A stretch of 63,481 bases of DNA, the filler included, from Diploschistes diacapsis (taxonomy: Eukaryota), in the NCBI GenBank assembly GCA_023645945.1. It is 25 parts of 25 records of this genome, joined end to end, with 100 filler letters (N's around TTAATTAATTAA, not from the genome) between each part and the next. Parts side by side here need not be neighbours in the genome. Positions count along the whole stretch, not along the records: positions 12,026 to 13,641 come from JALAIB010002819.1; 24 more parts are not named here. One strand, given 5' to 3'. Positions 1,621 to 58,389 of the stretch are shown here, in pieces (positions within the stretch are counted from its first letter, which is position 1; each line of letters opens with the position of its first letter). The position numbers and the translations under genes were made by a program. The notes below the pieces were generated by a model that saw only the letters and a list, made by a program, of their open reading frames with translations, was not told the DNA's origin and ran no database searches.

Positions 1621-1720
1621 NNNNNNNNNNNNNNNNNNNNNNNNNNNNNNNNNNNNNNNNNNNNTTAATTAATTAANNNNNNNNNNNNNNNNNNNNNNNN
1701 NNNNNNNNNNNNNNNNNNNN
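1621..1720. other. Artificial contig spacer N44-TTAATTAATTAA-N44 (first of 24; others start at 3340, 5059, 6776, 8493, 10210, 11926, 13642, 36212, 37924, 39636, 41345, 43054, 44763, 46469, 48174, 49879, 51584, 53288, 54992, 56692, 58390, 60088, 61785)
   Basis: Identical 100-bp spacer with a six-frame-stop 12-mer; flanking contigs are unrelated and sorted by length. Confidence 0.98.
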
Positions 1721-2140
1721 AAAAATTATAGGTCTAAAATCCCGATACCGTGCCGATTATATAAAACATATATAAATTATAAGATACATAAATAACGACG
1801 TTAGAGATCTCGATACCTTAATAGGCAAACCCCGCCTAAATAAAAAGAAAGGGACGAAAAGATCCAACGAAGAACCTTCCGTTAAAAAAAAGAAATGTTT
1901 CGAATGTGGTAAGATAAGTTACTTCGCCCGAAATTACCGATCTAACAATAAAATTATTAGAAAAAATATTCTAACCGCGACAAATCAGTATTATCTTAAC
2001 GTAATTACAAATTACCTTATAAAGGACTGGTTTATAAACGAGTAACCTTAAAAAAACTTATAAAAAAATCGAATAACATAATTTGGCAAACGATATCGAC
2101 GAATCTACTAATAAAGATATCGAAATCATATTTTTATTAA
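1721..2140 (+). pseudogene. Gypsy gag remnant with degenerate CCHC zinc knuckle
   Basis: Translation CFECGKISYFARNY near 1895-1940; homologous to 3440-3666 on the minus strand. Confidence 0.6.
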
Positions 2141-2439
2141 TGAGGCAGATCAGCCTAGGCGCCTGCCAAGCCACCAGGGTCACATGACGGCAGGGTCACA
2201 TGACGGGTGCCAACCGTGCCAAGGATGTTAGGGGGTGGTTGTGTAGGCGGGTAGAACCCGAACCCCGTAGGGCTGGCATTCATATACTATTTATTCCTGC
2301 TATCCTTTTATTTAAATAGTTTCTTCTTTAGCTTTTCGAATCGAGATTTTTTATTTGTAGATATCTAGTTACACGTAAGTCTTCCGGATTAGGTCTAGCC
2401 CTTAGTAGTATAGTACCCCATTCCTGCGCTGGCGTTTCA
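2141..2439 (+). mobile_element. LTR family B (chromovirus-like), 5' LTR, followed by PBS 2441-2452 and a gag remnant to 3339
   Basis: TGAG...TTTCA ends; several copies in the window; downstream sequence matches the reverse complement of 44863-45397. Confidence 0.85.
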
Positions 2440-3439
2440 TATTCGAAAAGCTTATTTTATTTTCGCACTTGTGACGAGAGTTTAAAACGTTAATCGAATC
2501 AAGTATTCGAGTATCCGCGATTATCGAACTCGAAAGTATTATTCGCCGATTTATTATAAACAATGGCCCTCGTTAATAGAAAGGATTAAAAAAGAAAGAG
2601 AAAATTTATAGTACTTCCGACTTTTAAAAAATTAACCGAGATCATAACGGTTAAAAAATACGATTCAAAAAACGAATCGATAGTTAAAAAATAATCTATA
2701 AGGTATCCCGCGTTACGATAGTTATTTATGTCAGGAATTTTCGAGAGATTTAATATGAGCGAAAAACTAGTACGGGAAAGATTTTAAAAGAACCCCCGCG
2801 ACGAATTTAAACGAAAAATATCTTCGTTTAAAGACCCGATAAAGAAATAGGTTAACTGAGACAACGTTATCGAGAACGTGAGGAAGCTATAATCGTAAGA
2901 ACGAGTAAAAGAGATCTATTATCGAACCGAAAAAGAACTAACGAAATTTATTAAATTAATACGTACCTACGTGACAGCGATCGAAAAGATAAATCAACGA
3001 AATAAACTCAAGATTTAACGATTTTAATAGTAATTCGAGAAAGACTTAGTTAAACGAAACGAATTAAAATAGTTATTGAATAGGGAACAAGAGACCCGGG
3101 CCCGCCTAATTAACGAAAATATTGACTTACGAGCAACTATCGAAGAATTTCGCAATCAACAAGAACCCATAAATCCAGCTACGGAGATTAATAACGGAAA
3201 ACGTTTTTCCTCATATAAGCTATCCGATCTATCTTAGTTTATAATAAATCTCGGAAAAAGGTCTCAATTATAAATAATAACGTCGTTTAATTAAAGATAA
3301 ATTAAAAATTAACGATAACCGGTTTAACGGGGCCGACGANNNNNNNNNNNNNNNNNNNNNNNNNNNNNNNNNNNNNNNNNNNNTTAATTAATTAANNNNN
3401 NNNNNNNNNNNNNNNNNNNNNNNNNNNNNNNNNNNNNNN

Positions 3440-3666
3440 ATTAAATCTTCTATAAGATAACTTATAGTTACGTTAAGATAATACTAATTTCTCTCGATTA
3501 AAATATTCTTTTTTACGAGTTTATTTTTAGATCGATAATCTCGGGCGAAGTGACTTATCTTGCCATATTTGCAATATTTCTTTTTTTTAATTAAAGGTCC
3601 CCCGTTGGGTCCTTTAATTCTTTTCTTTTGATTAAAACGGGGTTTATCGATTAAAATATCGAGATC
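3440..3666 (-). pseudogene. Gypsy gag zinc-knuckle remnant
   Basis: ORF 3484-3747 contains KYCKYGKISHFARDYR, a degenerate CCHC knuckle. Confidence 0.6.
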
Positions 3667-3668
3667 TA

Positions 3669-4800
3669 CAGTGAGGTCCCAAAAGTAGTTGGGTATGAAA
3701 ACAACAAAACACGACCCACCAACTTCATCAAGCCATTGCGCGCTCAATAAAGCTTCAATAAATACGCAAATTAGATCATTTTGAAGCTCTTAAACAGTAG
3801 ATAATATTATTATTTAGTTTATCATCTTTGCGCGTCTATATAAGCCTGTATACGCTTCGACATAGAATGAACTAATATAGCAGACAATTCTTACTCCTTA
3901 TCCCCTCAAAAATATCCCAAAAGCTTCTCGAATAATTATTTTTAAAATATTCTTCTTTTTCCCTTTGATTCCGCGCATCGTTTTAAGCTTAAAATAAAGC
4001 TTAATAGTCATTTCTTTGAGAATAGGCCATAGATGTTCGATAGGGTTCAGATCTGGACTATAAAGAAGATAATCGAGCGTCTAGATGCCTAATTCTTTTA
4101 AAAAACCTTTGACACAATTAGTATTATATATAGGCGTATTATCCTGCAAAAATGCCTGTCCAGGTTCGTAGACTTGAGGCATAATAGAGAGGTTCAGCAA
4201 CCCTGTAAATGCACCGCGTAAGTCTTATTGTAGTTAGCTCGTGTCTCGGCGCCGAGAGCTGCTTACCTTTTTAGGAAGCATCTCCGAAAGTGTAGGCAGC
4301 GTCCGCCTACAGAACCGCAGACGTCGCCTACGCTGCGTAAGTCCTAATATAAATAAGCGTCGAGAACAGCCTTACGGCCCTCCACCGACGCATCTATAGC
4401 GTAAAAGACGCCTGCCCCTACGCTCCCAGGCCCTCAATTTACGATTTAAATGATAATAAACGCTGACATTAAATACCGCAGCGTCTATTACCATTTCCGC
4501 ATCCTTCTTACCCCCCCTTCTCCTTTACTCCTTAAACGTGAAATAACCATATTTTAGACCTTTTTAATTATATTCAAAAGAGATGAAATTACTAAAAGTA
4601 TTGTATTTTAATATACTATTTAATTTGGACTAGTCTCTTACCAAAACCCCTCAAAAAGCGCTAGCTACATCTAGACTTACGCAGCGAGCGCATTGCAGGG
4701 TTGCTGAACCTCTCTAATATCGCTTAAAGTAGGTAGTATGTTTCGGCAGTAGCTGTTCGTTCATTTTAGTATTCTTATTATTTTTATTAATAGGCGTTAT
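3669..4800 (-). mobile_element. Tc1-like (DD34E) transposon relic, interrupted by a MITE
   Basis: TA|CAGTG terminus at 3667-3673; minus-strand motifs FLQDN (~4140-4155) and YSPDLNPIEHLW (~4025-4062); right limit approximate. Confidence 0.8.
4185..4716. mobile_element. MITE / non-autonomous TIR element (~530 bp)
   Basis: Perfect 21-bp TIR TAGAGAGGTTCAGCAACCCTG / CAGGGTTGCTGAACCTCTCTA; no ORF; interrupts the Tc1 transposase. Confidence 0.85.
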
Positions 4801-5158
4801 TTTAAGTAATTCGTGTCGTTATGTATCTGGTCCTCGTCTAGCGCGTCGATAGAGCCTATTTTCTTGATTTTAAGTAATAATTCGGGGTCATCCTGAGCGA
4901 TATAGGTCATGCTGTTCATCGTCTCGTTCTGAAGCTTTTGCTTTCGTATATTGGGCTGTAAAATAGGGAATATTGAGCTTTTGGGCGGCATTTTTGAAAG
5001 TATTGACGCTGTAGAGAACGCGGAGGATCCCAGAGCGCTCGAATGGCTTCAAACGGCGNNNNNNNNNNNNNNNNNNNNNNNNNNNNNNNNNNNNNNNNNN
5101 NNTTAATTAATTAANNNNNNNNNNNNNNNNNNNNNNNNNNNNNNNNNNNNNNNNNNNN

Positions 5159-6775
5159 ATGTTATTCGTATTTTATAATTCTAAGAAATGAATATAAAAC
5201 TCTAAAACGATAAATAATTAAAAACGATATATTTCGATAATGCATCTGAAGTAATCTCTATAATCGAAAATTAAGGGAAAAATTCAGGAATTTAGATAGA
5301 ACCAATAGTACTATACACGTCAAGTTAAAATGATACTGCCGAAAGATCCATACAAACGACCGAGATAAACATCCGTGCCATATTTAAGAAAGCGAAATAA
5401 GAATACGCTTTCTAGAACGAAACGATATTAATTTAATATTACATCCGAAATAAGACGATAATAAGATTTAAATTAAACGATTTAATCGCGACGTTTATCG
5501 AACATTAATTAAACGAAAAATCGTTAACAGATTATTTATATCCGTGTCTAAAAGTTAAGATATTATAATAATATAAATCCGAAGTTATTAATTAAACGAT
5601 AAGATAAATTAATAAATAAGGCAATGATTAAGTTTAATAATAAAATATATTAACATCGATAAATAGTATAAGATCTAAATACCCGACTTTAAGAAATTAT
5701 TAAAACTAATTCTGTTAAGTTTTAAAAAATAAAACATTTACTTATTAAAAATTAAAATTATTTAAAAATAATAAGAAAGGCGATAACGTAATATCCGTCC
5801 GGAAGCCATCGGGAGGTTTAACGAACGATTTAGTATCTAATATCGAAAACAATAAAGACGCAGTAACGATAAAGGTAAAAATTTAATTAAACGATATTAA
5901 ATTTTTATTATCTGGACCTACGATAGATCACAGTATTCTAAAAGTTTCTGTTTTCGTTCCCTGTGATTAACCCGAATTAGATAAGGATAGCCGACGGTTA
6001 ATAAAAAGGTTCTTGCGGGTCGAGGTTCTTAGTAATATGTAAGACCAAGCAAGGAACATGCCAAGAGTCGGACAAGCGGCACTCAGGGTCTTAGCTTGCG
6101 GGTACTTGAAGGAGGATTTTGCTCTTCTTATTCTCTCTTCTTCTTTAATAATTAGTCCTAGCATGAATCTGCCCTACGTATAACTATCTTATCACATTAT
6201 CGTATTCTATTTTTTACAGTTCTAATTATTCTACCTTTCTTAAGGACGACGATCCGACAAGATAGCACGTTCTTCGCAACGTACACGTAAGACAAACCCA
6301 CGCAACCAAATTAAAATAAAAGAAAATGAAAGAAAAGAAAGAAATGAACGATCTAGAACTACTTTACTTGATAAAAAGGATTCAGATCATACCGAATAAC
6401 AAGAACGAGACTCGTAATTTAAAGATAAAACATTAATAAACGAATCGCTAGAATAAAAAGATGGTTTCGAATCTGTATTAAAAGATGCATCAGAAACAAT
6501 AAAAAACATATTACTAAAAATAAGATAAGATATGAAATTTAAAGAAAGCTAAATAATAGAAATAAAAAAAGATGCCCTCGTCGAGAAAATAAAAAGAATT
6601 GCTGTTAAAGCAGCATTAACAGCCGAAATGATGTATAAACGATAAGCAAGTTAGGATCATTTAGATACCATTGACCACTACCGCGACATCAAATTAGATA
6701 AATTACCACCCTTCTATAAAAAAATTATTTAAGAACATAACCGTTAAATAACAAATACAGAAAATATGTTTATCA
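5159..6775 (+). pseudogene. Copia-type integrase/pol remnant, with a possible inserted LTR at 5962-6196
   Basis: NDTAERS (QNGxAER-like) near 5328; homologous to 58490-58980 on the minus strand; insert bounded by TGTGAT...ATCACA. Confidence 0.55.
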
Positions 6776-6875
6776 NNNNNNNNNNNNNNNNNNNNNNNNN
6801 NNNNNNNNNNNNNNNNNNNTTAATTAATTAANNNNNNNNNNNNNNNNNNNNNNNNNNNNNNNNNNNNNNNNNNNN

Positions 6876-8492
6876 GTGGTGAAGGGGACCAGTACTTATA
6901 AAGATGAGGAAGTAAAGAATCTGTTATCGCAGCTAGGCTATAACAGCTAGAACGACGTCGGCGCGCTAATAATAATCGAAAAAAAAAAATTTCGCGAATA
7001 AAATTTTTTTTATCGAGATATTTTAACGTCTCGATAATCTTACGTATTATTATTACGAAAGAAAGGTTAATTATAACTTAAATTTAAACGTATTGAATAT
7101 TTAGGGGATTAATTATGAAAATTATCCGATTTCTTTTTATTTATTTCGTAAGCGGGCCCGAAGCGGAGATCTCGTTAAGTTCGATACGGGCAATCTTCGC
7201 GGATATAAAAGTATTTAAAAAAAAATAGGATATTTTTGCGATTATAAAATTTCGTTAATCTTAATATTAACGATTTACGCGCGGTGTTTCGTTAATATCG
7301 TTTTATCGTTTCCGCCGAAGCGGTTTTACGATACGGAACGCAAACGCGTAAATAATTAATAAAAAAAAAACGGAAAGAAATAATTATAATTAATAAAAGA
7401 ATAAACCGTATTACGTTATTTAATTAAAAATATAGCGAACGGGGTCTTTACGAAACGTAATCGGTTTATTATTAAGAGATCGTTATAAGTAACGCGAAAC
7501 GAAAGGTTTTCGAATTTTACGCGGGACGTGGTGTATAATGATAACGATTGTTGGTTTTAGGGATTTAATTTTTTTATTAGGTTCTAACCCCTGGTACGTC
7601 TCGAAAGAAAGGAAATCTTATTTCCGCCGAAGATATTATTTATATAGCCCGAAAAGACGGACGCGCGCGTCGATATGTCGAAAAGTTTAAACGTCTAAAC
7701 GTAAATAGACGAGACGTGCTTAAAAAGTAAACCGGAGGGGATTTAAATACGGATAAACTTCGCTTATTTAAACGCATAGAAACAGGCGATGGGCACAGGA
7801 TCTTAAAGTTTCATATTATGCTGAAAATTAACGCGGAATTCCCGGTCCGCGCATAATATCTTAGGATTTTAGGATATTATGTTCTCCCTTAGTCCGGGGG
7901 GGGGAAAAAGGGGGCTCGAGCGTCTTCAAAATCGTGTATTCCGTATAATTACGGGAGCGTATAAGCTAACCTCGATTGCGAGATTAGGAGCCGAGACTTA
8001 CGTATTTTCGACGGATTTTTACCTAATCGATATAGCGGCGCGTATTTATCGGAAACTCGAAACCAGCGGAATAATAACGGAAATTAAGGAGCGATACGTA
8101 GCAATAGCGAAAAGATTACGATTAAAACGAGGACGGAGAACGGAAATTAAGCCGACGTTAGTTTAATTCCGGGCGGTATAAATAAACGATAAAAAAAAAG
8201 AAAAATAATTAAAAGAATGAATTAAAAAAGAATAAATAAAAAGAACGAAAAAAAAAAAACCAACGGAAAGGACTCGGAAAGAAAACGAGAAAAGGATGTC
8301 GTTATGACATCAAAGGGCCGTAAGGTTCTCGATTTATATTAAAGATTAAAAAAAATAAAAAGTTTAATAGCGATTTAAGTAAAAACTGGTATAAACGGGT
8401 TGAATAAATGTTTTAGAAAATGGAACGTTCTCGGAATCGAATCGCTAAAATATTATTATAATGGCGGATTAGAAACGGTTCGATATATAATT
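6876..8492 (+). mobile_element. Tad/CgT1-like LINE ORF2 remnant (post-RT region and C-terminal zinc knuckle)
   Basis: LQNRVFRIITGAYK...LGAETYV in ORF 7879-8166; TGINGL and ETVR motifs near 8385-8485. Confidence 0.75.
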
Positions 8493-9045
8493 NNNNNNNN
8501 NNNNNNNNNNNNNNNNNNNNNNNNNNNNNNNNNNNNTTAATTAATTAANNNNNNNNNNNNNNNNNNNNNNNNNNNNNNNNNNNNNNNNNNNNATTTCTTA
8601 AATTTTATAAAATTCTTAAACATTCCGTAATTATCTTTCTAACTTCTTAAATATACGTCGAGATAAGGTTTTATTTATGTTAATACGCGGTTATATATGA
8701 ATTTTATAACGAAGATTATTCGTTTTTTTTAATCGTTTATGATATACGGGTTTTAATAGAAATATATTGAAAATTAAAATATCTAATATTTCAATTTCTT
8801 TCGGTTTCCGTAGAACGTTATTAGTTTTATAGTTTTTATAATAGATTTTTTATACGATTTATTTTCGTTAGGTTTATCGTTATTTCCGAGGTCGTCGCTT
8901 TTGGTTTTCGTTGTGTCTTTTATACGGACATCGGTTTCATTTAATAACGTTATTATTCTAAATACGCGAGATATTGCGGATTTAATTATCGGTGGCGATC
9001 GCCCGGTTATATTATTAATAATATTTATTCTTAAAAATGTTTAAG

Positions 9046-9501
9046 TGTTATAATCTTTATTTATACAAAATATACACGAGTAGAATTAAAGTGGATTTAA
9101 TCTTTATTAAAAGAGGAGTATGATAAGAAAAAAAAATAAAATAATTATAGATTTTAAATTGTTTTTAAAAAGAAAACTTTTTAAATAATAAAAATAACGA
9201 ATATAAATTAATCACGAATAATAACTTAAGATATCTATAAAAATAAATACGTTCTTTTTTACGAAGGTAAAGTCGTGTTTATATATAATTAACTCGCTCG
9301 CCGTTTATCGTAAGTTTAGCGAGCGGCGCCCTCGAGGTTCGTCGTTTATAAGAATGAACGTGACCGTCGAGCGGTGACGAAAACTCGCTCGCCGTTTACG
9401 AAAGTGAGCGCGAGCAGTAAGCGCATCACGTGACTTCTGGTCTCGTGATTGATCTATATACAAAACTGGGACGTGCCAAGTCTAGTACTTGGATCGTAAC
9501 A
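9046..9501 (-). mobile_element. LTR family A (subtype 2), 5' LTR; leader/gag continues 9045-8593
   Basis: TGTTATAATC...GATCGTAACA; reverse complement of 52395-53287. Confidence 0.85.
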
Positions 9502-10209
9502 GTTTGAGGCGATCGAGAATGAAGATCTCGATACATCTTAACGGTAATTCCGTTAAACTCGATGTTTTATCTTTAACGGATATTATTATAACATCTACGT
9601 CGACGTCGAATTCATTAACGACGGCTATCTCGCCGCTAACTTATAAAAACATAATGAAATCAGTTCATTATATTATTAAATTTATAGTTTCATTTAATAA
9701 AAGTTCCGGATTTAGTTTTAAAGGTTATCGCTACGTCATCGTCTCCGTTCGTCTAAATTTGAATGGAAATACGCATCGATTCTATTTCGATAATAAATAC
9801 ACGATATCATTCATAAATAAAAAATTCCTACAGAAATATAAGCTTAAGGCGAAGGTACTTACGATACCGATTCCGATGAAGATTATTAACGTTAGAAAAA
9901 ACAAGCATTCGGTTTTGAACTTTATCGTATTAAACATGTTTTTCCCGATCGACGAAAGACGAATTACGCAGATTTAGAAAGAGTTATATATCGTAAATAA
10001 TCTACGAGTAAACGTGTTTATTAATATCGATATATTATATTTAAAATAATTTATTATCGATTTTTAAAAATAAATTACAATTATCGAGAATTACGCCGAT
10101 TTAGAGATTCCGATTTCAATTATAACGTAAAAGAAGATTACGGTTATAATATTTTTTCAAAATATATTTATAATACTTTCGAGGTCGGTTATTTTAGTGC
10201 CTATTATTG
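9502..10209 (+). pseudogene. Gypsy aspartic protease region remnant
   Basis: FYFDNKYTISFINKKFL (degenerate LDTG-type) and YIVNNLRVNVFINIDIL motifs. Confidence 0.55.
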
Positions 10210-10309
10210 NNNNNNNNNNNNNNNNNNNNNNNNNNNNNNNNNNNNNNNNNNNNTTAATTAATTAANNNNNNNNNNNNNNNNNNNNNNNNNNNNNNNNNNN
10301 NNNNNNNNN

Positions 10310-10419
10310 TAGTTCTTTAGACTTAATAAAACACGTAAAAATTAACGATCGTTCAAAGCACATCGATATTACTTATTATCACGTACGAGATCTAATTAAG
10401 CAAAGATATATTAAGATAT
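10310..10419 (+). pseudogene. Copia RNase H remnant
   Basis: INDRSKHIDITYYHVRDL matches the Ty1/Copia RNase H motif. Confidence 0.75.
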
Positions 10420-10600
10420 TGTGGTAGTTGCTGGGCTTGCTTGTGGGTTGCTGCTGGGGCAGGTGTTGCCGACCTCGCTGTCTAGGCATCATCTATGACG
10501 ATGGCGCTTGGCATCTACTGTATATAAATAGATTTTGTTCCAGATTAGCTACCAATCTACACACTTCTTACATTTAATTTTATAAATGATTTGCTTAACA
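10420..10600 (+). mobile_element. Probable 5' LTR of another family, followed by a tRNA-Met-like PBS (TGGTAGC, 10604-10610)
   Basis: TG...CA bounded block interrupting the Copia RNase H; TATA-like motif; single copy in the window. Confidence 0.4.
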
Positions 10601-10753
10601 AATTGGTAGCAACGAGAATGGTTTAATCCTTCTTGTCCCAATGCTGTATTAATATCAATAGAGCTTAATTTTCTACCTAGTTCTACTTATTAGATCAGAT
10701 CTTGCTTCTGAAGTTTGAACTTCGGAAAATTTGCTTTCCTTCCACCTTCCAGC

Positions 10754-11207
10754 TGTTATGATCTCTATCTATACAAGGTATACACGAGTAGGATCAAGGT
10801 GGGTTTGGTCTCTGTTAGAAGAGGAGTGTGGTAGGAGAAGAAGATAGAGCAGTTATAGGTCTTGGATTGTCTCTAGAAAGAAGGTTCTAAAGTAATAAAA
10901 GTAACGAATATAAATTGATCCCGAATAATAATTAAGAATATTTATAAAAATAAACACGTTTTAGATTTATAAAGATTATAATAACGTTTTTATATAATCG
11001 ATAACTTTTTTAATAAAATAAATAAATAAATAAATAAAATTACCGTTCTTTCTTTCTATTTACGACTAAATAAAATAATTTTTTAAACCTTTTATTTATC
11101 ACGTGACCCGTATTATCTTAATTGAATTATATATAAGGAATGATTAGAAAATACTCGATTAATTATTGCATATTAAGTACTATCGATTAATACTTTAGAT
11201 CGTAATA
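10754..11207 (-). mobile_element. LTR family A, 3' LTR; internal region 11208-11925
   Basis: Paralogue of 448-1620, differing mainly by transitions. Confidence 0.85.
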
Positions 11208-12025
11208 TTATCTCTTTCCTTTAATCTTATCGGCCCGATAAGCACCGAAAGATTAATATAAGTATTAAATAAAAGAAAATCCTAAGTCATAAGATAGCAA
11301 TATCTTTTTTATCTTCGATATAAAAGAAACGTTTAGATTTTATTATTTGTCTTCGGGGTTTCTTAAATACATTATTTTATAATTATTATCTATTTTTTTA
11401 CGATTGTATTAAGATGCCTTCTATTTCGATAAAATACGCTCGCTATATTAAGTTTGATAGGAAGGATTGTGTTTCTATTATATGAAAGGTAATTGAACGG
11501 ACCATCCTTTCGAAAAAAGACGAGATCGAGAAGGATAAAAAGCTTATTAACGAGGATAATAAATAAGAGAAGGAGTTAGAAAAATAACTTCGCGAGATTA
11601 AAGATCGTCGTCTTTAATATAAACGTCGTATTTATTGTAATCGAAAGGTTTTTTAATTAACGGAAGATCGTACGGACGCGTAAGCGAGATATTTAACGAA
11701 AAAATTAGATTTAGAATCATTCGAGGCGTACGCGAATACTTAAAAAGGCGTGCCTTCGAAGTTCGATCCAGAATTATTAAAACTAGCCGTAATATCGCCG
11801 GCTTAGTTAAATTAGTTTTTAAGAGATGAAGCTTTTATCCCTTTAGGTTAAATAAGTTTGCGATATTCCTTTATTTTGTTCTTATAATTACTTAAATTTT
11901 CTAATAATTCCTATATATTCTATTCNNNNNNNNNNNNNNNNNNNNNNNNNNNNNNNNNNNNNNNNNNNNTTAATTAATTAANNNNNNNNNNNNNNNNNNN
12001 NNNNNNNNNNNNNNNNNNNNNNNNN

Positions 12026-12206
12026 CTTATATATTAATATATTATTATAATTTAAGGTCTATAAATAGTCGTTAATATTAAATTTTATTAGAATCGAATT
12101 ATTGCGATGCAAGATAATCATTGTTAAGAAAAATCGAATGTAAGATAAAAATAATGATTTGAGATGGCCGGACTCTGGGGGTGGCCGGACTCACCGTCAA
12201 ACACGT
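12026..12206 (+). mobile_element. Fot1/pogo-like transposon right end
   Basis: Ends ...CACGT|TA with duplicated GGCCGGAC subterminal repeats; related end at ~50316-50362. Confidence 0.7.
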
Positions 12207-12284
12207 TAAATTAACAGATTTTCTGTAATACGCAGAACCCAATAAGGGCTAATAGGGGGTATGCCAAGCATATACCAAGGCCCG

Positions 12285-12495
12285 TAGAACGCCCCTACAG
12301 GAATACTACACAACCGGGGGCTGGGCCTGATCCGGAAGGATTACGTGTAGCTGCAATCTGTAGGCTGAATGGTTCAGATTCGAAAAGGTGAAGAACTAAC
12401 TAGGTGGGCAGTAGCGAGGTATGAATACCTCCCAGGTCAGCCCTACTGCCCTACGGGGTTCAACCCTTGAACCCACAAACGTTCAGGATGTTCCA
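12285..12495 (-). mobile_element. LTR family C (related to B), 3' LTR with polypurine tract
   Basis: TAGAAC(=TGGAAC)...GTTCCA ends; minus-strand GGAAAGGGGGATAG abuts 12495; partial copy at 14199-14347. Confidence 0.65.
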
Positions 12496-12620
12496 CTATC
12501 CCCCTTTCCAAACTGTTGCTGTCCCCTAGCAACAAAACAAAACAAAACAAAACCCTTATTCCCTCTTTCCTAGTTCGGATATCTGCTCCTCCCATGCTCT
12601 AATATACTCTTTTCGGCCTA

Positions 12621-12971
12621 GTGCCGAGGATGTTAGGGGGTGGCTGTGTAGGCGAGTAGGACCCGAACCCCGTAGGGCTGGCACCCACACACTATTTATT
12701 CCTGCCACCCTTCCACCTAGATAGTTTCCTCTCTAGCTTTTCGAATGTGAAACGCCAGCGCAGGAATGGGATACTATATTATCGGGGGCTGGGCCTGATC
12801 CGGTGAGATTACGTGTAGCTGGGTATCTGCAGGTAAAAGGTCTCGATTCGAAAAGTTAGAGAGGAAACTATTTAGGTGGAAGTGTGGCAGGAATAAATAG
12901 TGTGTGGGTGCCAGCCTTACGGGGTTCGGGTCCTATTCGTTTACACAGCCACCCCCTAACATCCTCGGCAC
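12621..12971. repeat. Inverted repeat: 126-bp arms (12621-12746, 12846-12971), 99-bp spacer, derived from LTR B
   Basis: Arms are near-perfect reverse complements with a few mismatches, mostly transitions. Confidence 0.92.
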
Positions 12972-13037
12972 AACCGTCATGTAACCCTGCCGTCACGTGA
13001 CCCCGGTGGCTCGGCACGCCTGGGCTGATCTGTCTCA
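12748..13037 (-). mobile_element. LTR family B, complete 290-bp LTR
   Basis: Minus strand reads TGAGACAG...GCGTTTCA. Confidence 0.9.
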
Positions 13038-13741
13038 GCCCGCTAGCGTGTTCTTATATAAGAGCAGACTTTTCGCACATAGAGATAATTCTTTAAAAAT
13101 TATTTTATTAATATAACTATCGTTTAACAGAGATTTAGTTACCGAATAACCATTTATTTATTTTATTATTATACTGTAGTATTAGTCTTTATAATTATAA
13201 CTTCTCTTCCTTCTTGAGAACTACGGTTCGAAATATAACAAATAATTCGCGATCGAAGCGCAATACCCGTCTATAATCATAAAATAGACAGAAATTAGAA
13301 AACGAGTTTAACGAATTATAAACTTTTAACAACCGATTTAAAAGCGAGATAATACCGGAGGAAGAATTTTTCAACCTTGTAGAACCAGAATAAATTCGGA
13401 TAAAAGATATCCGACTATAAGAACGGATAAAAGTACTAAAAATAAAAAAGAAGATATTATAATTTAAAAGACGTTTAAAACGCATCGAAAACGACGTTAA
13501 ACGATTAAAAACTAGCGAAAAACTTTCTGACGCTAACATTTATTTCGACGTTAACGCGACGCCGCTAACTCGTAAGAAACGAGCGAATAAAGATCATTAA
13601 GATATTAAAAATCGTTATCTCAAGCCTAAAAAACTTCTAAANNNNNNNNNNNNNNNNNNNNNNNNNNNNNNNNNNNNNNNNNNNNTTAATTAATTAANNN
13701 NNNNNNNNNNNNNNNNNNNNNNNNNNNNNNNNNNNNNNNNN

Positions 13742-14198
13742 TATTATAATCTTTATTTATATAAGATATATACGAATAAAATTAATATAAATTTAATTTT
13801 TATTAAAAGAAGAATATAATAAAAAAAAAGATAAAATAATTATAAATTTTAAATTATCTTTAAAAAAAAGGCTTTTTAAGAATAAAAGTAACGAATATAA
13901 ATTGATTCCGAATAATAATTAAGGATATTTATAAAAATAAATACGTTTTTTTTTATAAAAATAGAATCGTGTTTATATATAATTAATTCGCTCGCCGTTT
14001 ATCGTAAGTTTAATGAGCAGTATTTTTAAAGCTCGTCGCTTACGAGAATAAACGCGATTATCGAGCGGTGACGAAAACCCGCTCGCCGCTCATAAGAATG
14101 AGCGCGAGCAGTGAGCACATCACGTGACCTCCCGTCCCGTGACTGACCTATATACAACAAAGCTGGGACGTGCCAAGTCTGGTACTTGGATCGTAACA
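13742..14198 (-). mobile_element. LTR family A (subtype 2), inserted into an LTR C copy (14199-14347)
   Basis: TATTATAATC...GATCGTAACA, then AGCTGCAATCTGTAGG as at 12349. Confidence 0.8.
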
Positions 14199-14370
14199 AG
14201 CTGCAATCTGTAGGCTGAATGGTTCAGATTCGAAAAGGTAAGGAAGGAACTATCTAGGTGGGAGGAGGGCACAAATAAATAGTGGGTGCCAGCCCTACCG
14301 CCCTACGGGGTTCAACCCTTGAACCCATAAACGTTCAGGATGTTCCACGTAAAAAAAAAAAAAAAAAAAA

Positions 14371-38677: not shown

Positions 38678-41197
38678 TTCTTCCACAGGCGGAACCGTCT
38701 AGTATGTTTAGTCTAATTTAATTTTTTAAATTAAAATCGATTGTTTTAAGACGTTATATTTCGTAATATAATAGCGTTATTTTAAGCGTCGTAATCTTAT
38801 TAGCGACTTTTCCGTAATTTTATCTTACATAACCCTTTTTTCTGACAATATAAAAAGAAAGTATAATATATATTAAATATAGAGTATCGAAGACTGAAAA
38901 TATTTTTTTCTAACTTTTTTAACCGTCGGTCATTATTACCTAGTTCGGATCGATTATAGGGAACAGGCGCCCCTAGGGTGCTGTAATGTACCGTAAATTC
39001 TAGATAATAGGTTTAATATTTAAATAGAATATTTCTTTTTCGATTTTGATTCGTCGTTTTTCGAATAGGAGTTAAATATCTAGATAGATGAACTAGTCAG
39101 TCGATTGAAGTTCAGGTTCAGATTTAATATCAGTTTTTGAACTTTTATTGTCTGAATTTTTTATATCGCAGGCGCGTTTGTTCTTGCCCTTTTGCTTGTT
39201 GCGGATGTCTCAGGATTCTTTTTTCTTCCGTTTCTTATCTTTTGCTGCGATGATCAAACTTCTGAATTCTATAAAGAGTTTATAGCGTATCGCGCGATGA
39301 TTATTATCGTTATAAAGTAGATATCTTTTTAATAAGCTTCTTGAGTTAAAATGACGGCGTCGTTTCTCATCGGATCGGGATCCTTTTTGACGGAATGAAT
39401 ATGCTCCGATTTCCTTTTTTGTTCGTTTCTTTTATTTATTAGTTAATTTATTAAATTATTTATCGAAATCGATATCGGCGGATAAAACATTATCGATCTA
39501 GATATTAATAGCGTCGATAATAACTACGTAATTAGGCGGTAATGCTGCAAGTAGTTATTAAAAAAGAACCTTTAGGGCGTGATTTTTTTATTTATACGAT
39601 ATCCGTTTTAAAAGTTTTATTAAATGTGTCTATGTNNNNNNNNNNNNNNNNNNNNNNNNNNNNNNNNNNNNNNNNNNNNTTAATTAATTAANNNNNNNNN
39701 NNNNNNNNNNNNNNNNNNNNNNNNNNNNNNNNNNNCGTAAATATTAATAATCGAAGGTATTCCGGGATCTAAATTATTATATTAACGTTATAATCGTTTA
39801 AATATTTAGTATATTTATGTATCGATAGATTTATTAATTCCGTAAATGTTTTTTCGAGTTAAATAACGGTTTAAACCCGTTTTCTATACGTCGAATCGAG
39901 TTAAAAGATCTATAAAAGCAAGTACGTTCTGATCGTAAGCGAGTTAAACGTCGAGTATAAGCCGGCGCAGCTCCGGGGTAAAAAGATTAGATATCTATTA
40001 AATATTATTAATAAACAAAATCTTTAGTCTATTAAACAGAAGAGATTTACGAGCTCGTAGACCCGTTTTGTTTTTAGAGCCGAGTAGGTAGTATAAGCAG
40101 ATCTTTTAGAAAAAAGGTCAGAATAAGGGGACCAGATAGGTACCATTTTAGTAGTTATTAGGTTCCGGGTATAGGCTAAACAGTAAATTATAGAAAGAAT
40201 TTCCGACTAAAACTGGATCGTTTTTTATTAATACCGATCGTTAATTTTCCGGAGCTTTATCGCGGGATATACGTATATTAGACGAGATAAAGATACTTTT
40301 AAAAAAAAATTTATAATAATTCTATTTAAGGGATTATTAATTTATTTAAATTATATCTAAAGATAAAGAAATAAAAAAAACATAAAAATTATATAAGCTA
40401 TAAAGAATTATTAAAGAAATAAAAAGATTTATTTTATTAATATATTTATTTTATAAAACCGCTATATATTATAATTTATAAATATACGTAACTTATACCC
40501 GCGTTTTGTGTATTTAAAAACCGATATCGGCCCGTATATTAATTAATCGGGGCCGTGTCGGTAAATTTTTCGTTTAACGGCGGATTTATATCCGTTACGT
40601 TTCCGCGGAGTTAGCGGGGGTATATTAGGATTTCTATAGGAATTTTTGGATAAGCGTGAGTAACGGTTCTGGAGGTTTAGAGTTAAGAAAGAGGAAGGTA
40701 ATTATAATAGATACCTGTGATAGTCCTCCGGGTGAACGGAAGACCTCAGCTTTAGCACCGCGCCAAGGCCGCGGGCCTACATAAGAGGAGTTTTTAGTAG
40801 GAAGTCTCCTACTTTCTTCTCGAGAGATTAGTTCATAAATACTATGACCATTACTACCACACTACTGCATTTTATCCTTGACAGTGACAATAAGGCAGAT
40901 AAGTGGCTATTCGGTGGCTAGATCTCTGCTAGACGATAGATGTATTAATGAAATAACTTCTAAAGAATTATTTCTATTTACGAAAACTTTATTTTTATAT
41001 AATAACACGCTAACGAGCTTTAATATATACTTAACATACTTTTTAATAATTTTTATTAAGTTTTATATATTATAATTATCTTTTCTTTTTTTAAATTTTG
41101 TTTTTAGAACGTTTAATTATCGTAACGTACCTTTATTATTAATTATATAATAATAGATTTCTAACGTGTCGTCAATCTTTTATATTTTAATAATATA

Positions 41198-42409: not shown

Positions 42410-42881
42410 TGAGACAGCCCAGCCCATGGGCCTGCCAAGCCACGGCAGGGTTAATGCCCAGGTGCTTGCCAAGCCACGGCAGGGTCAGGAAATGGTTGTA
42501 TAAACGGGTAATCCCCGAACCTCGGTAGGTCTAACATTCATACTACTTAACAGTATTCTTTTCTTATTTAGATAGTTTCTTTGAAACGCCAGCGCAGGAA
42601 AGGATGTTATTCTACCGGGGACTGGGCCTGATCCGGAAGGATTAGGTGTAGCTTAGGCATCTGCAGGTAAAAGGTCTCGATTCGAAAAGCTGAAAAAGAA
42701 ACTATCTAAATGGGAAGAAGGTACCGTTAAGTAGTGTGGATGTTAGACCTATTAGGGTTCGGGGACTACCCGTCTACACAGTTACTTCTTAATCCTGCCG
42801 TGTCTTGGTAAGCACCTGGGCATTGACCCTGCCGTGGCTTGGCAGGCCCAGCTTGGCAGGTCCCTGGGCTGGGCTGTCTTA
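42410..42881. mobile_element. Partial LTR B (+, 42410-42581) abutting an inverted complete 3' LTR B (-, 42582-42881) with PPT
   Basis: TGAGACAGCCC start; TGAAACGCCAGCG junction; TACCCCCCTTTCC follows 42881. Confidence 0.8.
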
Positions 42882-43153
42882 TTACCCCCCTTTCCAGATG
42901 TTTATGTTTCTTATAAGCGCGATGCTCTTTTTTTAGTTAATCTTTATCTCGATCTTTATTTCTTTTTCTAATTTATTTAAAAGGATACCCGTTGTTTTTT
43001 CGTAATAAATGTTTTTATCTTTTTAAATCTCTTTCAGCGTTATTTTTAATTAANNNNNNNNNNNNNNNNNNNNNNNNNNNNNNNNNNNNNNNNNNNNTTA
43101 ATTAATTAANNNNNNNNNNNNNNNNNNNNNNNNNNNNNNNNNNNNNNNNNNNN

Positions 43154-44296
43154 ACGACATATAGTCCTAACGTAAAAACGATAAAAGTAATACGCGAACG
43201 AGTATCGACGTCTCGTTAAAAAGATTAACCCCGATAATTTAATTTAATTAAATATACGCAATATTAGAACCATTCGAACCTATACGAAACTAAATAATAA
43301 ATAAAACGGTCCTTACAACGTATTACGAAAGTTAAGCGACGTCGATTACGAACTAGATTTGTTAACGTCGATAAAATAATTTAAAACCTTTTATTCGTTT
43401 TTACTTTTAAAAGACCCGCAAGACCCATTAAAGGAACAAACGTATCTTAAATTATCTCCGGTAGAAACGAAGGTCGAAAAAGAATGGAAGCTTAAGGAAA
43501 TCTTTAACGCCAGACGTGACCCCGAACGAGAACTAAACGTCTAATATAAGTACGTTGGGTAAAATAATTACCCGACGATAATTAATATCTTGTTATTAAT
43601 TTCGAAAATACCTTCGATATCTTACGAGAATTTTATTAACTAAATTCCGCAAAGATAAGATCCTTATAACTTATAACGCCTAAGGATAAATAACTTACGT
43701 TAATAAGGACTATAAACGGGAGCGAGGTTTTAAAATAAAACGATATTAATTATTACGACGATTACGTTTTTTTATAGAATCTAAAAGTATATTTAAATAA
43801 AGATACCGTTAAAAGAGGTTTAAAAAAACGATAATATCTATTACGAAAGAACAACGGGTATCCTTTTAAACAAATTAGCGAAAGAGATGAAGATCGAGAT
43901 GAAAATTAATTAAAAAAGGCATCATCGCGTTTATAAAAGATACAAGCATCTAGAAAAGGGGGTAATGAAATAGATCAGTTAAATGAAACAGATCAGCTTA
44001 GGCGTGCTAAGCCACCGGGGTCACGTAACGGTAGGGTCACATGACGGTAGGGTTACACGACGGGTACTAACCGTGCTAAGGATGTTAAGGGGTGGCTGTG
44101 TAAGCGGGTAGGATCCGAACCCCATAAGGCTGGCACTTATACACTATTTATTCCTACCACCCTCCTATTTAGATAGTTTCTTCTCTAGCTTTTCGAATCG
44201 AGACCTTTTATCTGCAGATGTCCAGCTACACGTAATCCTTCCGGATCAGGCCCAGCCCCCGATAGTGTAGTATTCCATTCCTGCGCTGGCGTTTCA
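43154..44296 (+). mobile_element. Chromovirus (Gypsy) 3' end: chromodomain remnant, PPT, 3' LTR B (43966-44296)
   Basis: PVETKVEKEWKLKEIFNARR near 43458-43515 is chromodomain-like; AGAAAAGGGGGTA PPT precedes the LTR. Confidence 0.8.
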
Positions 44297-50659: not shown

Positions 50660-51230
50660 AAAAACCGGAAGGCGAGAACAACGATAATACACCGTAAATT
50701 TATCGTAATTTTAATGAAAACGCCGTTTATTTAAAAAAGCTTAAAAAATGTTATTAATTCTTAACGTGCCTGGGTTAGAAAACCCGGAAAGCGAGGACGA
50801 CGGTAAGACGCCGCAGGTCTATCGTAGATTAATAAAAGCGTTTCCTACTTAAAGAAGCTTAAATAAGATATGATTAATTCTTAATAAACCTAAGCTAGAA
50901 AGTCCGGAAGGCGAAGACGACGATAATATACCGCAGATTTATCGTAGGTTATTAATAGAAGCGCTATGTACTTAAGAAGGCTTAAATAAAATATTATCAG
51001 CCCTTAACGTGACTGGGCCAGAAAACCCGGAAGGCGAGGACGACGGTAAGACGCCGTAGGTTTATCGTAGGTTAGTAAAAATACTATTTACTTGGAAGGA
51101 TCCGGATAGAGTATTATTAGTCCCGAGTGATATGCCTAGGTCAAAAAACCCGAAAGGTGAGGAAAACGATCGAATATCGTAAGTTTATCGTAAGTTAATT
51201 AAAGCGCTATCGATTTAAAAAGGGTTAATA
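50660..51230 (+). repeat. Five-copy ~116-123-bp tandem repeat inside a Gypsy pol remnant (50363-51583)
   Basis: Unit AAAACCCGGAAGGCGAGGACGACGGT... near 50661, 50779, 50898, 51022, 51145; paralogue on the minus strand at ~62200-63100. Confidence 0.8.
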
Positions 51231-57954: not shown

Positions 57955-58389
57955 TAGGCTGGCCGTCACTGACACTGACAGTGTCAGTGTCCGTGTTTTA
58001 GATTTTTTAGCTGCGGTGTCCGTGTCCGTAGATTCACGGAAGTGCAGTATCCGTATTAGTATCAATATTTTAAATTTTTTAATTATAGTGTTCGTGTCCG
58101 TGGATTTACGGAAATATAATGTCCGTGTTAGTATCCATGTTTAAAAATTTTTAATTGCGATATCCGTATCCGTGTCTTTATCGTAATATAGTGTCCGTGT
58201 CCGTCTCCGTATTTAAAAAAAATTTTAAAATAAAAACGTGAAAAATAAACGTGATAATTTTAAAAATATTAAAAAAAAAGTATTTTCGTGCTTTTACTGC
58301 AGTATAATGTCCGTGTTAGTAAATTTATAGAAATATAGTGTCCGTATTAATATCCGTGTTTTAAATTTTTTAATTGCGGTGTCCGTGTT
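57955..58389. mobile_element. hAT-like non-autonomous element, partial
   Basis: Starts TAGGCTGGCCGTCAC as at 62404; TGTCCGTG repeat array. Confidence 0.75.

What the first reader, a model, noticed from the sequence alone, without database searches (positions are those of the whole stretch)
12621..13037. Fossil fold-back of a self-priming retrotransposon: LTR-PBS continued by an inverted copy of its own U3
Seen on the minus strand: a complete LTR B (13037-12748), one spacer C, then the PBS ATTCGAAAAGCT (12746-12735). Instead of the leader found at 2453 and 45385, the sequence continues as the reverse complement of the LTR's upstream part to 12621. This gives a hairpin with 126-bp arms and a 99-nt loop. 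The junction base matches a native LTR/PBS junction, not the LTR-internal continuation (CGAG). Inference: plus-strand strong-stop DNA (U3-R-U5-PBS) snapped back through the self-priming complementarity, was extended and was integrated; intramolecular template switching in the chromosome would give the same result. A transcript would form hairpin RNA against the family's LTR promoter, a possible built-in silencing trigger. I know of no description of this structure but cannot search.
Basis: partly seen in the sequence, partly recalled or inferred. Interest (0 to 1): 0.8.

Follow-up and report, generated by a model that had tools for sequence, protein, structure and literature searches.

The report
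Fold-back fossil inside chimeric mini retrotransposon
A real LTR-plus-inverted-LTR hairpin turns out to be part of one tiny, integrase-inserted hybrid retrotransposon, best read as a fossil of reverse transcription that mis-primed on the element's own self-primer sequence.

Summary
Arms 12621-12746 and 12846-12971 are 126 nt, 119/126 complementary, with a 99-nt loop. On the minus strand the order is LTR B (13037-12748), spacer C, 12-nt PBS, then the reverse complement of B's own U3.

New here: the fold-back does not stand alone. It is the left part of one 753-bp insertion (13037->12285) flanked by a 5-bp target-site duplication, CGGGC. An uninterrupted, RIP-mutated copy of the host repeat lies at 40896-41075, and public contigs join 12279 directly to 13038. 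The right part of the insertion is about 124 nt of internal 3' end with a polypurine tract, then an LTR of a different, related self-priming family (A, 12496-12285).

Best reading (about 0.55; about 0.75 for any reverse-transcription origin): the PBS 3' end of plus-strand strong-stop DNA primed on the self-primer copy in a sense LTR. It copied 114 nt of U3, jumped to a co-packaged family-A minus strand, and integrase inserted the product.

Nested insertion and assembly artefact are unlikely. The silencing-hairpin idea is untested. A second LTR/inverted-LTR junction (42410-42881) lacks a PBS and is ambiguous. No read spanning the junction and no second copy could be obtained.

The parts
13038..13042 (-). 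Left copy of the 5-bp target-site duplication CGGGC, the last bases of host repeat Q
   Evidence: The empty-site paralog has CGAGC once, at 41014-41018.
12748..13037 (-). LTR B (290 bp, TGAGACAG...GGCGTTTCA), acting as the 5' LTR of the mini element
   Evidence: It is 81% identical to the LTRs at 2141-2439 and 43984-44296.
12846..12857 (-). Self-primer sequence p in LTR B (AACTTTTCGAAT; family state AGCTTTTCGAAT), complementary to the PBS; it ends the direct arm
   Evidence: The native RNA fold pairs p with the PBS.
12846..12971 (-). Direct arm of the inverted repeat (LTR B positions 67-192)
12747..12747 (-). 1-nt spacer C between LTR and PBS (native arrangement)
   Evidence: The spacer is T in the RIP-mutated native copies and C in a native family-A LTR-PBS contig of X2 (table 7).
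12735..12746 (-). Primer-binding site ATTCGAAAAGCT, which is also the first 12 nt of the inverted arm
   Evidence: X1 contigs branch to the native leader exactly at 12735.
12621..12734 (-). Reverse complement of U3 of LTR B (positions 180 down to 67), 114 nt
12510..12620 (-). Low-copy segment read as the last part of the internal region of a family-A element; it holds the PPT-like run GGAAAGAGGGAATAAGGG at 12570-12553
   Evidence: Summed contig depth is 350-590 here against more than 10,000 in the LTR parts in X1 (table 2).
12497..12509 (-). Polypurine tract GGAAAGGGGGATA directly upstream of LTR A
   Evidence: aligns with GGAAAGGGGGGTAA upstream of three other 3' LTRs.
12285..12496 (-). LTR A (about 212 bp, ends GGCGTTCTA). 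It belongs to a related but distinct self-priming family (p = ACCTTTTCGAAT at 12389-12378) and acts as the 3' LTR
   Evidence: A second A-type copy at 14348-14199 starts its homology at the same base. An X2 contig shows a native A-type LTR end-C-ATTCGAAAAGGT.
12280..12284 (-). Right copy of the target-site duplication CGGGC
   Evidence: (joints 12279->13038).
40896..41075 (+). Uninterrupted (empty-site), RIP-mutated paralog of host repeat Q
   Evidence: It is colinear across the insertion point; one search counts 21 of 25 differences as transitions on the left flank, and 59 transitions of 71 substitutions on the right flank (163 of 180 bases aligned).

Best explanation
The fold-back is a fossil of a mis-directed plus-strand transfer during reverse transcription of a self-priming (Tf1-like) LTR retrotransposon.

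In these families the PBS is complementary to a 12-nt stretch (p) inside the LTR, at the presumed start of R. Plus-strand strong-stop DNA (U3-R-U5-C-PBS) therefore carries, on one strand, both p and its complement at the 3' end.

Proposed steps (all inferred from anatomy):
1. The PBS 3' end did not pair with the 3' end of the minus strand. It paired with p on a sense LTR strand, most simply its own (snap-back, 99-nt loop), and was extended for 114 nt, copying U3 backwards.
2. The growing end then switched to minus-strand cDNA of a related, co-packaged family (A), about 124 nt upstream of that family's 3' LTR. It ran to the U5 end, and the minus strand was completed on it.
3. This gave a 753-bp double-stranded molecule with a proper U3 end (family B) and a proper U5 end (family A).
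4. Integrase inserted it into a host repeat and made the 5-bp duplication CGGGC.

Shown directly: the sequence order, the target-site duplication and empty site, the hybrid LTRs, and the diverged arms.

The locus is most likely inert today. It lies at the edge of a RIP-mutated block and has taken G-to-A changes in the direct arm only.
For: 1. Exact junction. LTR end, native 1-nt spacer and the 12-nt PBS are followed without a gap by the complement of the bases just upstream of p. Native copies in the window and 6 X1 contigs branch off exactly after the PBS.

2. The family is self-priming in design. p/PBS complementarity is 12/12 in the native copy at 2141-2452 and closes the R-U5 fold in both the MFE and the centroid structure. 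p and PBS covary between families: B has AGC.../...GCT, A has ACC.../...GGT. The PBS has no tRNA-type TGG start.

3. One integration event. CGGGC flanks 13037 and 12285. The flanks, with one copy of the 5-mer, align colinearly to 40896-41075. Contigs join 12279 to 13038 with 5 shared bases: 5 contigs in X3, and 1 related joint in X1. Loose ends at 12284 continue into the left flank: 4 in X1 and 7 in X2.

4. The LTRs of the unit belong to different families. R-U5 is 76% identical with indels and U3 is unrelated. A normal cycle cannot give this; a plus strand that ends on another minus strand can.

5. Known enzymology of the model element:
- RTs including Tf1 RT can clamp 3' ends through 2 nt (PMC3035444, passages).
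- Snap-back self-priming of strong-stop DNA is known in vitro for HIV-1 minus-strand DNA (PMC6088434, passages).

6. The arms differ at 7 of 126 positions, all in one arm, which rules out a sequencing or assembly palindrome.
Against: - There is only one instance. The junction pattern was found nowhere else in the window and in none of the JGI metagenome contigs, and that collection does not hold the family at all.
- No contig or read spanning the junction was seen.
- The U3 copy stops at LTR position 67, not at the 5' end of strong-stop DNA. A simple run-off snap-back is therefore not what happened, and an extra internal switch without demonstrable homology must be assumed.
- Two cDNAs of different families in one particle are assumed, not shown.
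- No RT or integrase gene of the family is in the window: 0 RT, integrase or gag hits among 144 ORFs and 9 read-through frames.
- The transcription start is unknown.
- A DNA-level double template switch gives the same sequence.
Confidence: 0.55

Rival explanations
1. Extended self-primer. The source RNA started upstream, inside U3 at LTR position 67. RNase H cleavage at the p/PBS duplex therefore left a 126-nt RNA primer instead of 12 nt. Plus-strand strong-stop synthesis copied the whole primer, giving PBS plus antisense U3, and ran off at the RNA 5' end. A forced end-of-template switch to the family-A minus strand followed.
For: It yields the same sequence and explains why the arm ends at 126 nt rather than at the U3 end. 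It also turns the second jump into a strong-stop-type end-of-template event, which RT clamp activity favours (PMC3035444). The target-site duplication and hybrid LTRs are explained as in the main reading.
Against: There is no evidence for an upstream start site and no RNA run was available. It is not known whether RNase H would cut an internal p/PBS duplex. Nothing marks LTR position 67 as special in the sequence.
Confidence: 0.12
2. Ectopic plus-strand transfer onto a pre-existing antisense LTR-B fragment. This fragment would be nested near the 3' end of the co-packaged family-A element. The PBS end found a p sequence on the A minus strand and simply copied what was there.
For: The same junction is expected, because p is the only 12-nt match the PBS needs. 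LTRs nested in antisense inside other elements do occur in this window, for example 43984-44296 inside the 45717-42582 region.
Against: It requires a special template that is not seen. The only other family-A sequence in the window (14348-14199) is a truncated LTR. The arm is nearly identical to LTR B of the same unit (119/126, and 126/126 before the later one-sided changes), as expected if both came from one molecule.
Confidence: 0.08
3. Chromosomal origin. A hybrid B/A element was integrated first. Later a replication or repair error replaced its interior: hairpin formation at p/PBS, copying back into U3, then a switch forward to the 3' end (fold-back, MMBIR-type).
For: The p/PBS stem and the present 126-bp hairpin are stable as DNA. 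The sequence outcome would be identical.
Against: It still needs an unusual reverse-transcription product (different LTRs within one target-site duplication), plus two further DNA-level switches with precise use of the PBS end. Cellular polymerases switch templates far less readily than RTs (established knowledge; in PMC3035444 the two cellular polymerases tested lacked clamp activity).
Confidence: 0.1
4. Ordinary juxtaposition. An LTR element inserted into, or beside, an inverted LTR by integrase, by autointegration, or by Rad52 single-strand annealing of a PBS tail, and later deletions trimmed the rest.
For: Autointegration gives LTR ends joined to inverted internal sequence (PMC7197481, passages). 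Tf1 cDNA can insert at PBS homology without integrase (PMC11042837). A second LTR/inverted-LTR junction of this plain kind exists at 42582/42581.
Against: In the finding, the LTR terminal CA is not joined to the target; a native spacer and PBS intervene. The base next to the PBS is C, whereas an inverted LTR would give G. The flank beyond 13037 is host repeat Q, not the rest of an LTR. The 5-bp duplication pairs the two outer LTR ends. The break in the inverted copy would have to fall by chance at one particular base of a 290-bp LTR.
Confidence: 0.05
5. Assembly or sequencing artefact (fold-back chimera).
For: No independent read across the junction was obtained. Only short contigs were laid and none listed spans it.
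Against: The arms differ at 7 of 126 positions, with a one-sided G-to-A pattern. The shared exact word between the native path and the inverted LTR is only 12 nt. The unit has a clean target-site duplication and an empty-site paralog.
Confidence: 0.03

Closest known systems
Self-primed reverse transcription of Tf1, Tf2 and Tj1 (Schizosaccharomyces) and the Tf1/sushi group
   Same: The PBS lies 1 nt from the 5' LTR. It is complementary to a 12-nt stretch inside the LTR at the presumed start of R, and it is not tRNA-like. The target-site duplication is 5 bp. In Tf1 the PBS persists as a single-stranded 3' tail on cDNA (PMC4600332; PMC11042837).
   Different: No pol gene of the family is visible here, so Ty3/gypsy membership is untested. 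The transcript 5' end is not mapped. The fold-back product itself did not turn up in six full-text searches.
Self-priming (snap-back) of HIV-1 minus-strand strong-stop DNA through the cTAR hairpin
   Same: The 3' end of a strong-stop DNA folds on an internal complement, is extended by RT, and gives a product that cannot make the normal transfer (PMC6088434).
   Different: That is the minus strand, it was seen in vitro, and it is blocked by nucleocapsid. No integrated product is mentioned in the passages I read. Here it would be the plus strand, using the PBS/self-primer pair, and it would be rescued by a second jump and integrated.
Recombinant LTR elements from co-packaged RNAs (template switching, inter-element strand transfer)
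   Same: The product is a mosaic of two related families made during reverse transcription (PMC6894440).
   Different: Standard models give two identical LTRs. This unit has two different LTRs and almost no interior.
Autointegration 'suicide' products (inversion and deletion circles) of Ty1 and SISYPHUS
   Same: An LTR lies next to inverted sequence of the element itself (PMC7197481).
   Different: Those junctions are at the LTR terminal CA and are circles. Here a PBS intervenes and the product is a linear insertion with a target-site duplication.
TRIMs and other miniature non-autonomous LTR elements
   Same: It is 753 bp with two LTRs, a PBS and a PPT, and no coding capacity.
   Different: TRIMs have matching LTRs and many copies. 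This unit has different LTRs and was found once.

Membership tests
Self-priming (Tf1-type) LTR retrotransposons | PBS complementary to a sequence in the 5' LTR at the start of the transcript | tested here: met
   The match is 12/12 (AGCTTTTCGAAT / ATTCGAAAAGCT) in the native copy at 2330-2341 / 2441-2452. It covaries in family A: ACC... / ...GGT. The stem closes the R-U5 fold. Whether p is the transcript start is untested.
Self-priming (Tf1-type) LTR retrotransposons | PBS directly downstream of the 5' LTR and not complementary to a tRNA 3' end | tested here: met
   There is a 1-nt spacer in the three B/C-type LTR-PBS junctions in the window (2440, 45398, 12747). The PBS lacks the TGG start of tRNA-type sites; that criterion is recalled knowledge.
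Self-priming (Tf1-type) LTR retrotransposons | mRNA 5' end equals the first base of the primer, with RNase H cleavage after it | not testable with these tools
   No RNA run was listed.
Self-priming (Tf1-type) LTR retrotransposons | Ty3/gypsy-type pol (PR-RT-RH-IN) | tested here: inconclusive
   Among 144 ORFs there were 0 RT, integrase or gag matches; 6 had weak unrelated hits below cut-off. Nine stop-read-through frames gave 0 families. The copies are RIP-degraded and appear to hold only a gag-like leader ORF.
Self-priming (Tf1-type) LTR retrotransposons | 5-bp target-site duplication | tested here: met
   CGGGC at 13042-13038 and 12284-12280, present once in the empty-site paralog.
Snap-back (self-primed) strong-stop DNA product | The inverted copy starts exactly at the 3' end of strong-stop DNA (the end of the PBS), at the internal complement | tested here: met
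   The arm starts with the PBS and continues into the bases upstream of p.
Snap-back (self-primed) strong-stop DNA product | Extension runs to the 5' end of the strong-stop DNA (U3 base 1) | tested here: not met
   The arm ends at LTR position 67, and 66 nt of U3 are not copied. An internal switch or a shorter template must be assumed.
Nested insertion into an inverted LTR | The rest of the target LTR and a matching duplication lie on the other side of the inserted element | tested here: not met
   Beyond 13037 lies host repeat Q. The duplication pairs the outer ends of LTR B and LTR A.
Autointegration product | LTR terminal CA joined directly to an internal target | tested here: not met
   A spacer C and a 12-nt PBS lie between the LTR end and the inverted sequence. 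This feature is met at the other junction, 42582/42581.
TRIM / miniature LTR element family | Two matching LTRs and multiple copies | tested here: not met
   The LTRs are of different families. The junction pattern was found once in the window and 0 times in JGI metagenome contigs.

The most novel reading that the evidence does not exclude
Self-priming retrotransposons may carry a built-in failure mode. Because the PBS is the complement of the start of R, every plus-strand strong-stop DNA can prime on itself. Such products would be made regularly. Some would be rescued by a further jump and integrated as LTR-hairpin loci, and these loci (antisense U3 driven by an LTR promoter, or hairpins in read-through RNA) would seed small-RNA or repeat-induced silencing of the family. 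The second inverted-LTR junction at 42410-42881 would then be a decayed second case.
Probability: 0.12. Interest if true: 0.8.

Novelty: new variant of a known kind. Interest (0 to 1): 0.55.

Why it matters
Self-priming is used by Tf1-like elements from fungi to vertebrates. Its costs are little explored.

This fossil suggests one concrete cost. The complementarity that starts minus-strand synthesis also lets plus-strand strong-stop DNA mis-prime on a sense LTR. The fossil also shows that such a product can still reach the genome, through a second jump onto a co-packaged relative, as a hybrid miniature element with an internal hairpin.

The prediction can be tested directly in the Tf1 system: look for PBS-to-antisense-U3 junctions in particle cDNA. 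The finding also offers one route to LTR elements with unlike LTRs and to inverted-repeat loci in repeat-rich fungal genomes.

As a single, probably inert fossil it has no demonstrated effect on the host.

Tried and rejected
- Whole genome: none is held for this window, so no genome-wide count of such junctions was possible.
- Public runs: one search listed 5 runs: lichen metagenomes, a rock metagenome and 'organism A'. The best holds 0.33 of the words. No RNA holder was listed.
- Laying reads: 4 runs were laid and 3 gave thousands of short contigs of the repeat families. None listed spans the junction, and X4 laid nothing. The junction is therefore neither confirmed nor contradicted by reads.
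- JGI metagenome contigs: the junction pattern gave 0 hits. The LTR-end-plus-PBS pattern gave 5 loci; read, none of the 5 shows the LTR sequence around the match and their GC is 0.52-0.63, so I judged them unrelated. The family is absent from that collection.
- Conserved 21-nt LTR block: 0 hits in viral contigs. In prokaryote genomes there were 4 hits, all with bacterial record titles; I did not read these loci.
- Pfam on 144 ORFs and 9 read-through frames: no RT, integrase or gag, so the family could not be classified by protein.
- Empty-site paralog for the second junction: none was found in the window with a transition-tolerant search. The flanks GTTAT / TCTAT match at 3 of 5 positions, or 4 of 5 allowing one transition, which is not decisive.
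- Inverted repeat 55092-55227 / 55435-55570: I saw no LTR sequence in it.
- Earlier scan notes: three look-ups returned nothing.
- Literature: six full-text searches found no description of an LTR-PBS-antisense-U3 product or fossil. Subscription-journal papers are mostly not searched. Atwood-Moore et al. 2006 could not be opened and is cited only as quoted in PMC11042837.

Full report
**1. Setting**

The window has a GC-normal gene block (about 14-36 kb, GC 0.46-0.56) between two AT-rich blocks (GC about 0.3). The AT-rich blocks have RIP-type dinucleotide indices: TpA/ApT is 1.10 and (CpA+TpG)/(ApC+GpT) is 0.56-0.59. The gene block gives 0.70 and 1.26. Paralogous repeats differ almost only by transitions.

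Public runs that hold part of the region are labelled lichen metagenome, rock metagenome and 'organism A'. This fits a RIP-competent ascomycete. No whole genome is held. Paired 44-nt runs of N interrupt the AT-rich blocks about every 1.7 kb.

**2.

The repeat finder gives arms 12621-12746 and 12846-12971, 126 nt, 94% complementary, with 99 nt between them.

Read on the minus strand:
- LTR B runs from TGAGACAG at 13037 to GGCGTTTCA at 12748.
- The spacer C is at 12747.
- ATTCGAAAAGCT occupies 12746-12735.
- The reverse complement of LTR B positions 180 down to 67 follows.

Two native 5' LTRs in the window (2141-2439 on the plus strand, 45717-45399 on the minus strand) have the same LTR end, a 1-nt spacer and the same 12-mer. 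They then continue with a shared leader and a gag-like frame. In run X1, six contigs follow the window down to 12735 and then branch into that native leader (table 7). The point where the inverted U3 begins is therefore exactly the end of the PBS.

The junction pattern occurs once in the window and in 0 of 100 shuffles. The strand folds as DNA at -156 kcal/mol, z = -22.

**3. The family is self-priming in design**

The 12-mer after the LTR is the exact complement of AGCTTTTCGAAT inside the LTR, about 33 nt downstream of a TATTTAT motif. When the native R-U5-PBS is folded as RNA, these two 12-mers form the closing stem in both the MFE and the centroid structure. The overall energy is not exceptional (z = -1.75; 10 of 200 shuffles fold as well).

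A related LTR family (A) has ACCTTTTCGAAT in the LTR. One X2 contig shows a native A-type LTR end followed by C and ATTCGAAAAGGT (table 7). This is a compensating change on both sides.

This is the arrangement defined for Tf1 and Tj1 (PMC4600332, passages).

Not shown: the transcript start, and a Ty3/gypsy pol. Pfam found no RT, integrase or gag among 144 ORFs or 9 stop-read-through frames.

**4. The key new result: one 753-bp insertion with a target-site duplication**

- The 120 nt upstream of LTR B (13157-13038) have a paralog at 40899-41018.
- That paralog does not stop there. With transitions tolerated, it continues colinearly into the sequence that lies downstream of 12280 in the finding's locus.
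- CGGGC is present at 13042-13038 and again at 12284-12280. The paralog has the 5-mer once (CGAGC, 41014-41018).
- Independent contigs agree. Five X3 contigs join 12279 to 13038 with 5 shared bases, X1 has a related joint, and loose ends at 12284 run into the left-flank sequence (4 in X1, 7 in X2).

Everything from 13037 to 12285 is therefore one insertion into a host repeat (Q), with a 5-bp duplication of the kind integrase makes.

**5. Anatomy of the insertion (minus strand)**

| Part | Coordinates | Note |
|---|---|---|
| LTR B | 13037-12748 | 290 bp |
| Spacer | 12747 | C |
| PBS | 12746-12735 | 12 nt |
| Antisense U3 of B | 12734-12621 | 114 nt |
| Low-copy segment | 12620-12510 | 111 nt |
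| Polypurine tract | 12509-12497 | GGAAAGGGGGATA |
| LTR A | 12496-12285 | about 212 bp |

- The polypurine tract aligns with the tracts upstream of three other 3' LTRs.
- The 5' limit of LTR A is supported by a second A-type copy (14348-14199) whose homology starts at the same base. It is also supported by the jump in summed contig depth at about 12500 (table 2).
- The 3' limit of LTR A is supported by the native A-type LTR-PBS contig.
- LTR A and LTR B share a conserved R-U5 core (76% identity with indels) but have unrelated U3 regions.

The unit therefore has a B-type 5' LTR and an A-type 3' LTR. A normal replication cycle cannot produce that; standard models give two identical LTRs (PMC6894440, passages).

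**6. What this excludes**

- *Nested insertion into an inverted LTR.* The flank is host repeat, not the rest of an LTR. The duplication pairs the outer ends. The base between LTR and PBS is the native C, not the G that an inverted LTR would supply.
- *Autointegration.* This joins the terminal CA directly to a target (PMC7197481). Here a PBS intervenes.
- *Integrase-independent annealing of a PBS tail to genomic homology* (PMC11042837). This could make the junction but not the duplication at LTR B's U3 end.
- *Artefact.* The arms differ at 7 of 126 positions. All 7 are changes in the direct copy (6 G-to-A and 1 C-to-A in LTR sense), while the arm keeps the family state. The direct copy lies next to the AT-rich, RIP-indexed left flank (13038-14000: GC 0.25, indices 1.12 and 0.36). 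I read this as leakage of RIP-type mutation after insertion; that reading is an inference.

**7. Most likely mechanism (inferred)**

Plus-strand strong-stop DNA of a self-priming element is U3-R-U5-C-PBS, and its 3' end is complementary to p on the same strand.

1. If the PBS end pairs with p and is extended, the product is exactly LTR-C-PBS-antisense U3.
2. To become an integrated fossil, the molecule must regain a U5 end. The sequence says the growing end left U3 after 114 nt. It continued on a minus strand of family A, about 124 nt upstream of the A LTR, and ran to its 5' end.
3. Completion of the other strand gives a 753-bp duplex with U3(B) and U5(A) ends.
4. Integrase inserts it.

Supporting knowledge:
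- Each RNA of a self-priming element brings its own primer, so two cDNAs in one particle are plausible (inference).
- About half of Tf1 cDNAs keep the PBS as a single-stranded 3' tail, and Tf1 RT adds extra bases (PMC11042837).
- RTs including Tf1 RT can start synthesis from 2-nt 3'-end pairings (PMC3035444).
- Snap-back self-priming of strong-stop DNA is established in vitro for HIV-1 minus-strand DNA (PMC6088434).
- That plus-strand transfer is usually intramolecular in retroviruses is recalled, not checked here.

**8. Variants and rivals**

- *Extended primer.* The arm's end at LTR position 67, not at the U3 end, is the main misfit with a simple snap-back. A long self-primer from an RNA that started at position 67 would explain it as a run-off.
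- *Nested antisense fragment.* A pre-existing antisense B fragment in the A template would make the event an ectopic but otherwise normal PBS-directed transfer.
- *DNA-level double template switch.* This would follow integration of a hybrid element and gives the same sequence, but it adds steps.

I put about 0.55 on the snap-back version, about 0.75 on a reverse-transcription origin of any kind, about 0.10 on a chromosomal origin, and the rest on juxtaposition or artefact.

**9. The second junction**

The window holds another LTR followed by its own inverted U3. It consists of a polypurine tract at 42895-42885, an LTR at 42881-42582, and then directly the inverted LTR from about position 186 back to base 1 (42581-42410).

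- It has no PBS.
- The terminal CA abuts the inverted copy.
- The inverted copy ends exactly at the LTR terminus.
- Copies differ almost only by transitions (25 transitions and 1 transversion over 155 nt between LTR and arm).
- The number of U3 tandem repeats differs between the arm, this LTR and the 5' LTR at 45717.

This fits an ordinary integrase-made junction (nested insertion or autointegration) at least as well as a snap-back from the U5 end. No mate junction or empty site was found. I do not count it as a second case.

**10. Function**

None is shown.

- Transcription from LTR B would start near 12857 and give R-U5-PBS-antisense U3, an antisense RNA to the 3' U3 of family transcripts. 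It would not give the full hairpin, which needs read-through from upstream.
- The locus sits in a RIP-affected block.
- No RNA data were available.

**11. Limits**

- Only one instance.
- No genome.
- No spanning read.
- No protein-based classification.
- The family is absent from the searchable contig collections.
- No description of this structure turned up in six full-text searches, but most subscription-journal papers are outside that library.

Noticed in passing
window 42410-42895 (minus strand): A second LTR is followed directly by its own inverted U3. The order is PPT, LTR 42881-42582, then inverted LTR 42581-42410 ending exactly at the LTR terminus. There is no PBS at the junction. It fits nested insertion or autointegration as well as a snap-back.
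   Followed up: partly
window 1805-2026 and 3446-3667: A 222-nt inverted repeat (79%) brackets the 5' LTR at 2141-2439, its PBS and about 900 nt of gag-like sequence. The LTR fragment seems to sit between inverted copies of its own upstream flank.
   Followed up: no
window 12856-12941 and 13038-13160: All 7 differences between the arms are changes to A in the direct LTR copy. That copy borders the AT-rich left flank (13038-14000: GC 0.25, RIP-type dinucleotide indices), and the inverted arm is untouched. This looks like leakage of RIP-type mutation into the edge of the insertion.
   Followed up: partly
window 1621-13741 and 36212-61884: Paired 44-nt runs of N separated by TTAATTAATTAA recur about every 1.7 kb, only in the AT-rich blocks (48 runs, 2112 N in all). 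They appear to be masked stretches, not biology.
   Followed up: no
window 14199-14348: A truncated family-A LTR lies exactly at the border between the AT-rich block and the GC-normal gene block.
   Followed up: no
window 5159-5541 and 58522-58904: Read-through translation shows a degraded integrase-core-like stretch, copia-like by eye. It is unrelated to the self-priming LTR families and got no Pfam hit at E <= 0.001.
   Followed up: no
window 57973-58223, 62450-62955, 50708-51073: Tandem arrays with 72-nt and about 122-nt periods lie in the right-hand AT-rich block.
   Followed up: no
window 55092-55227 and 55435-55570: A 136-nt inverted repeat (91%, 207-nt spacer) sits in AT-rich sequence inside the internal region upstream of the 3' LTR at 54507-54138. 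I saw no LTR sequence in it.
   Followed up: partly
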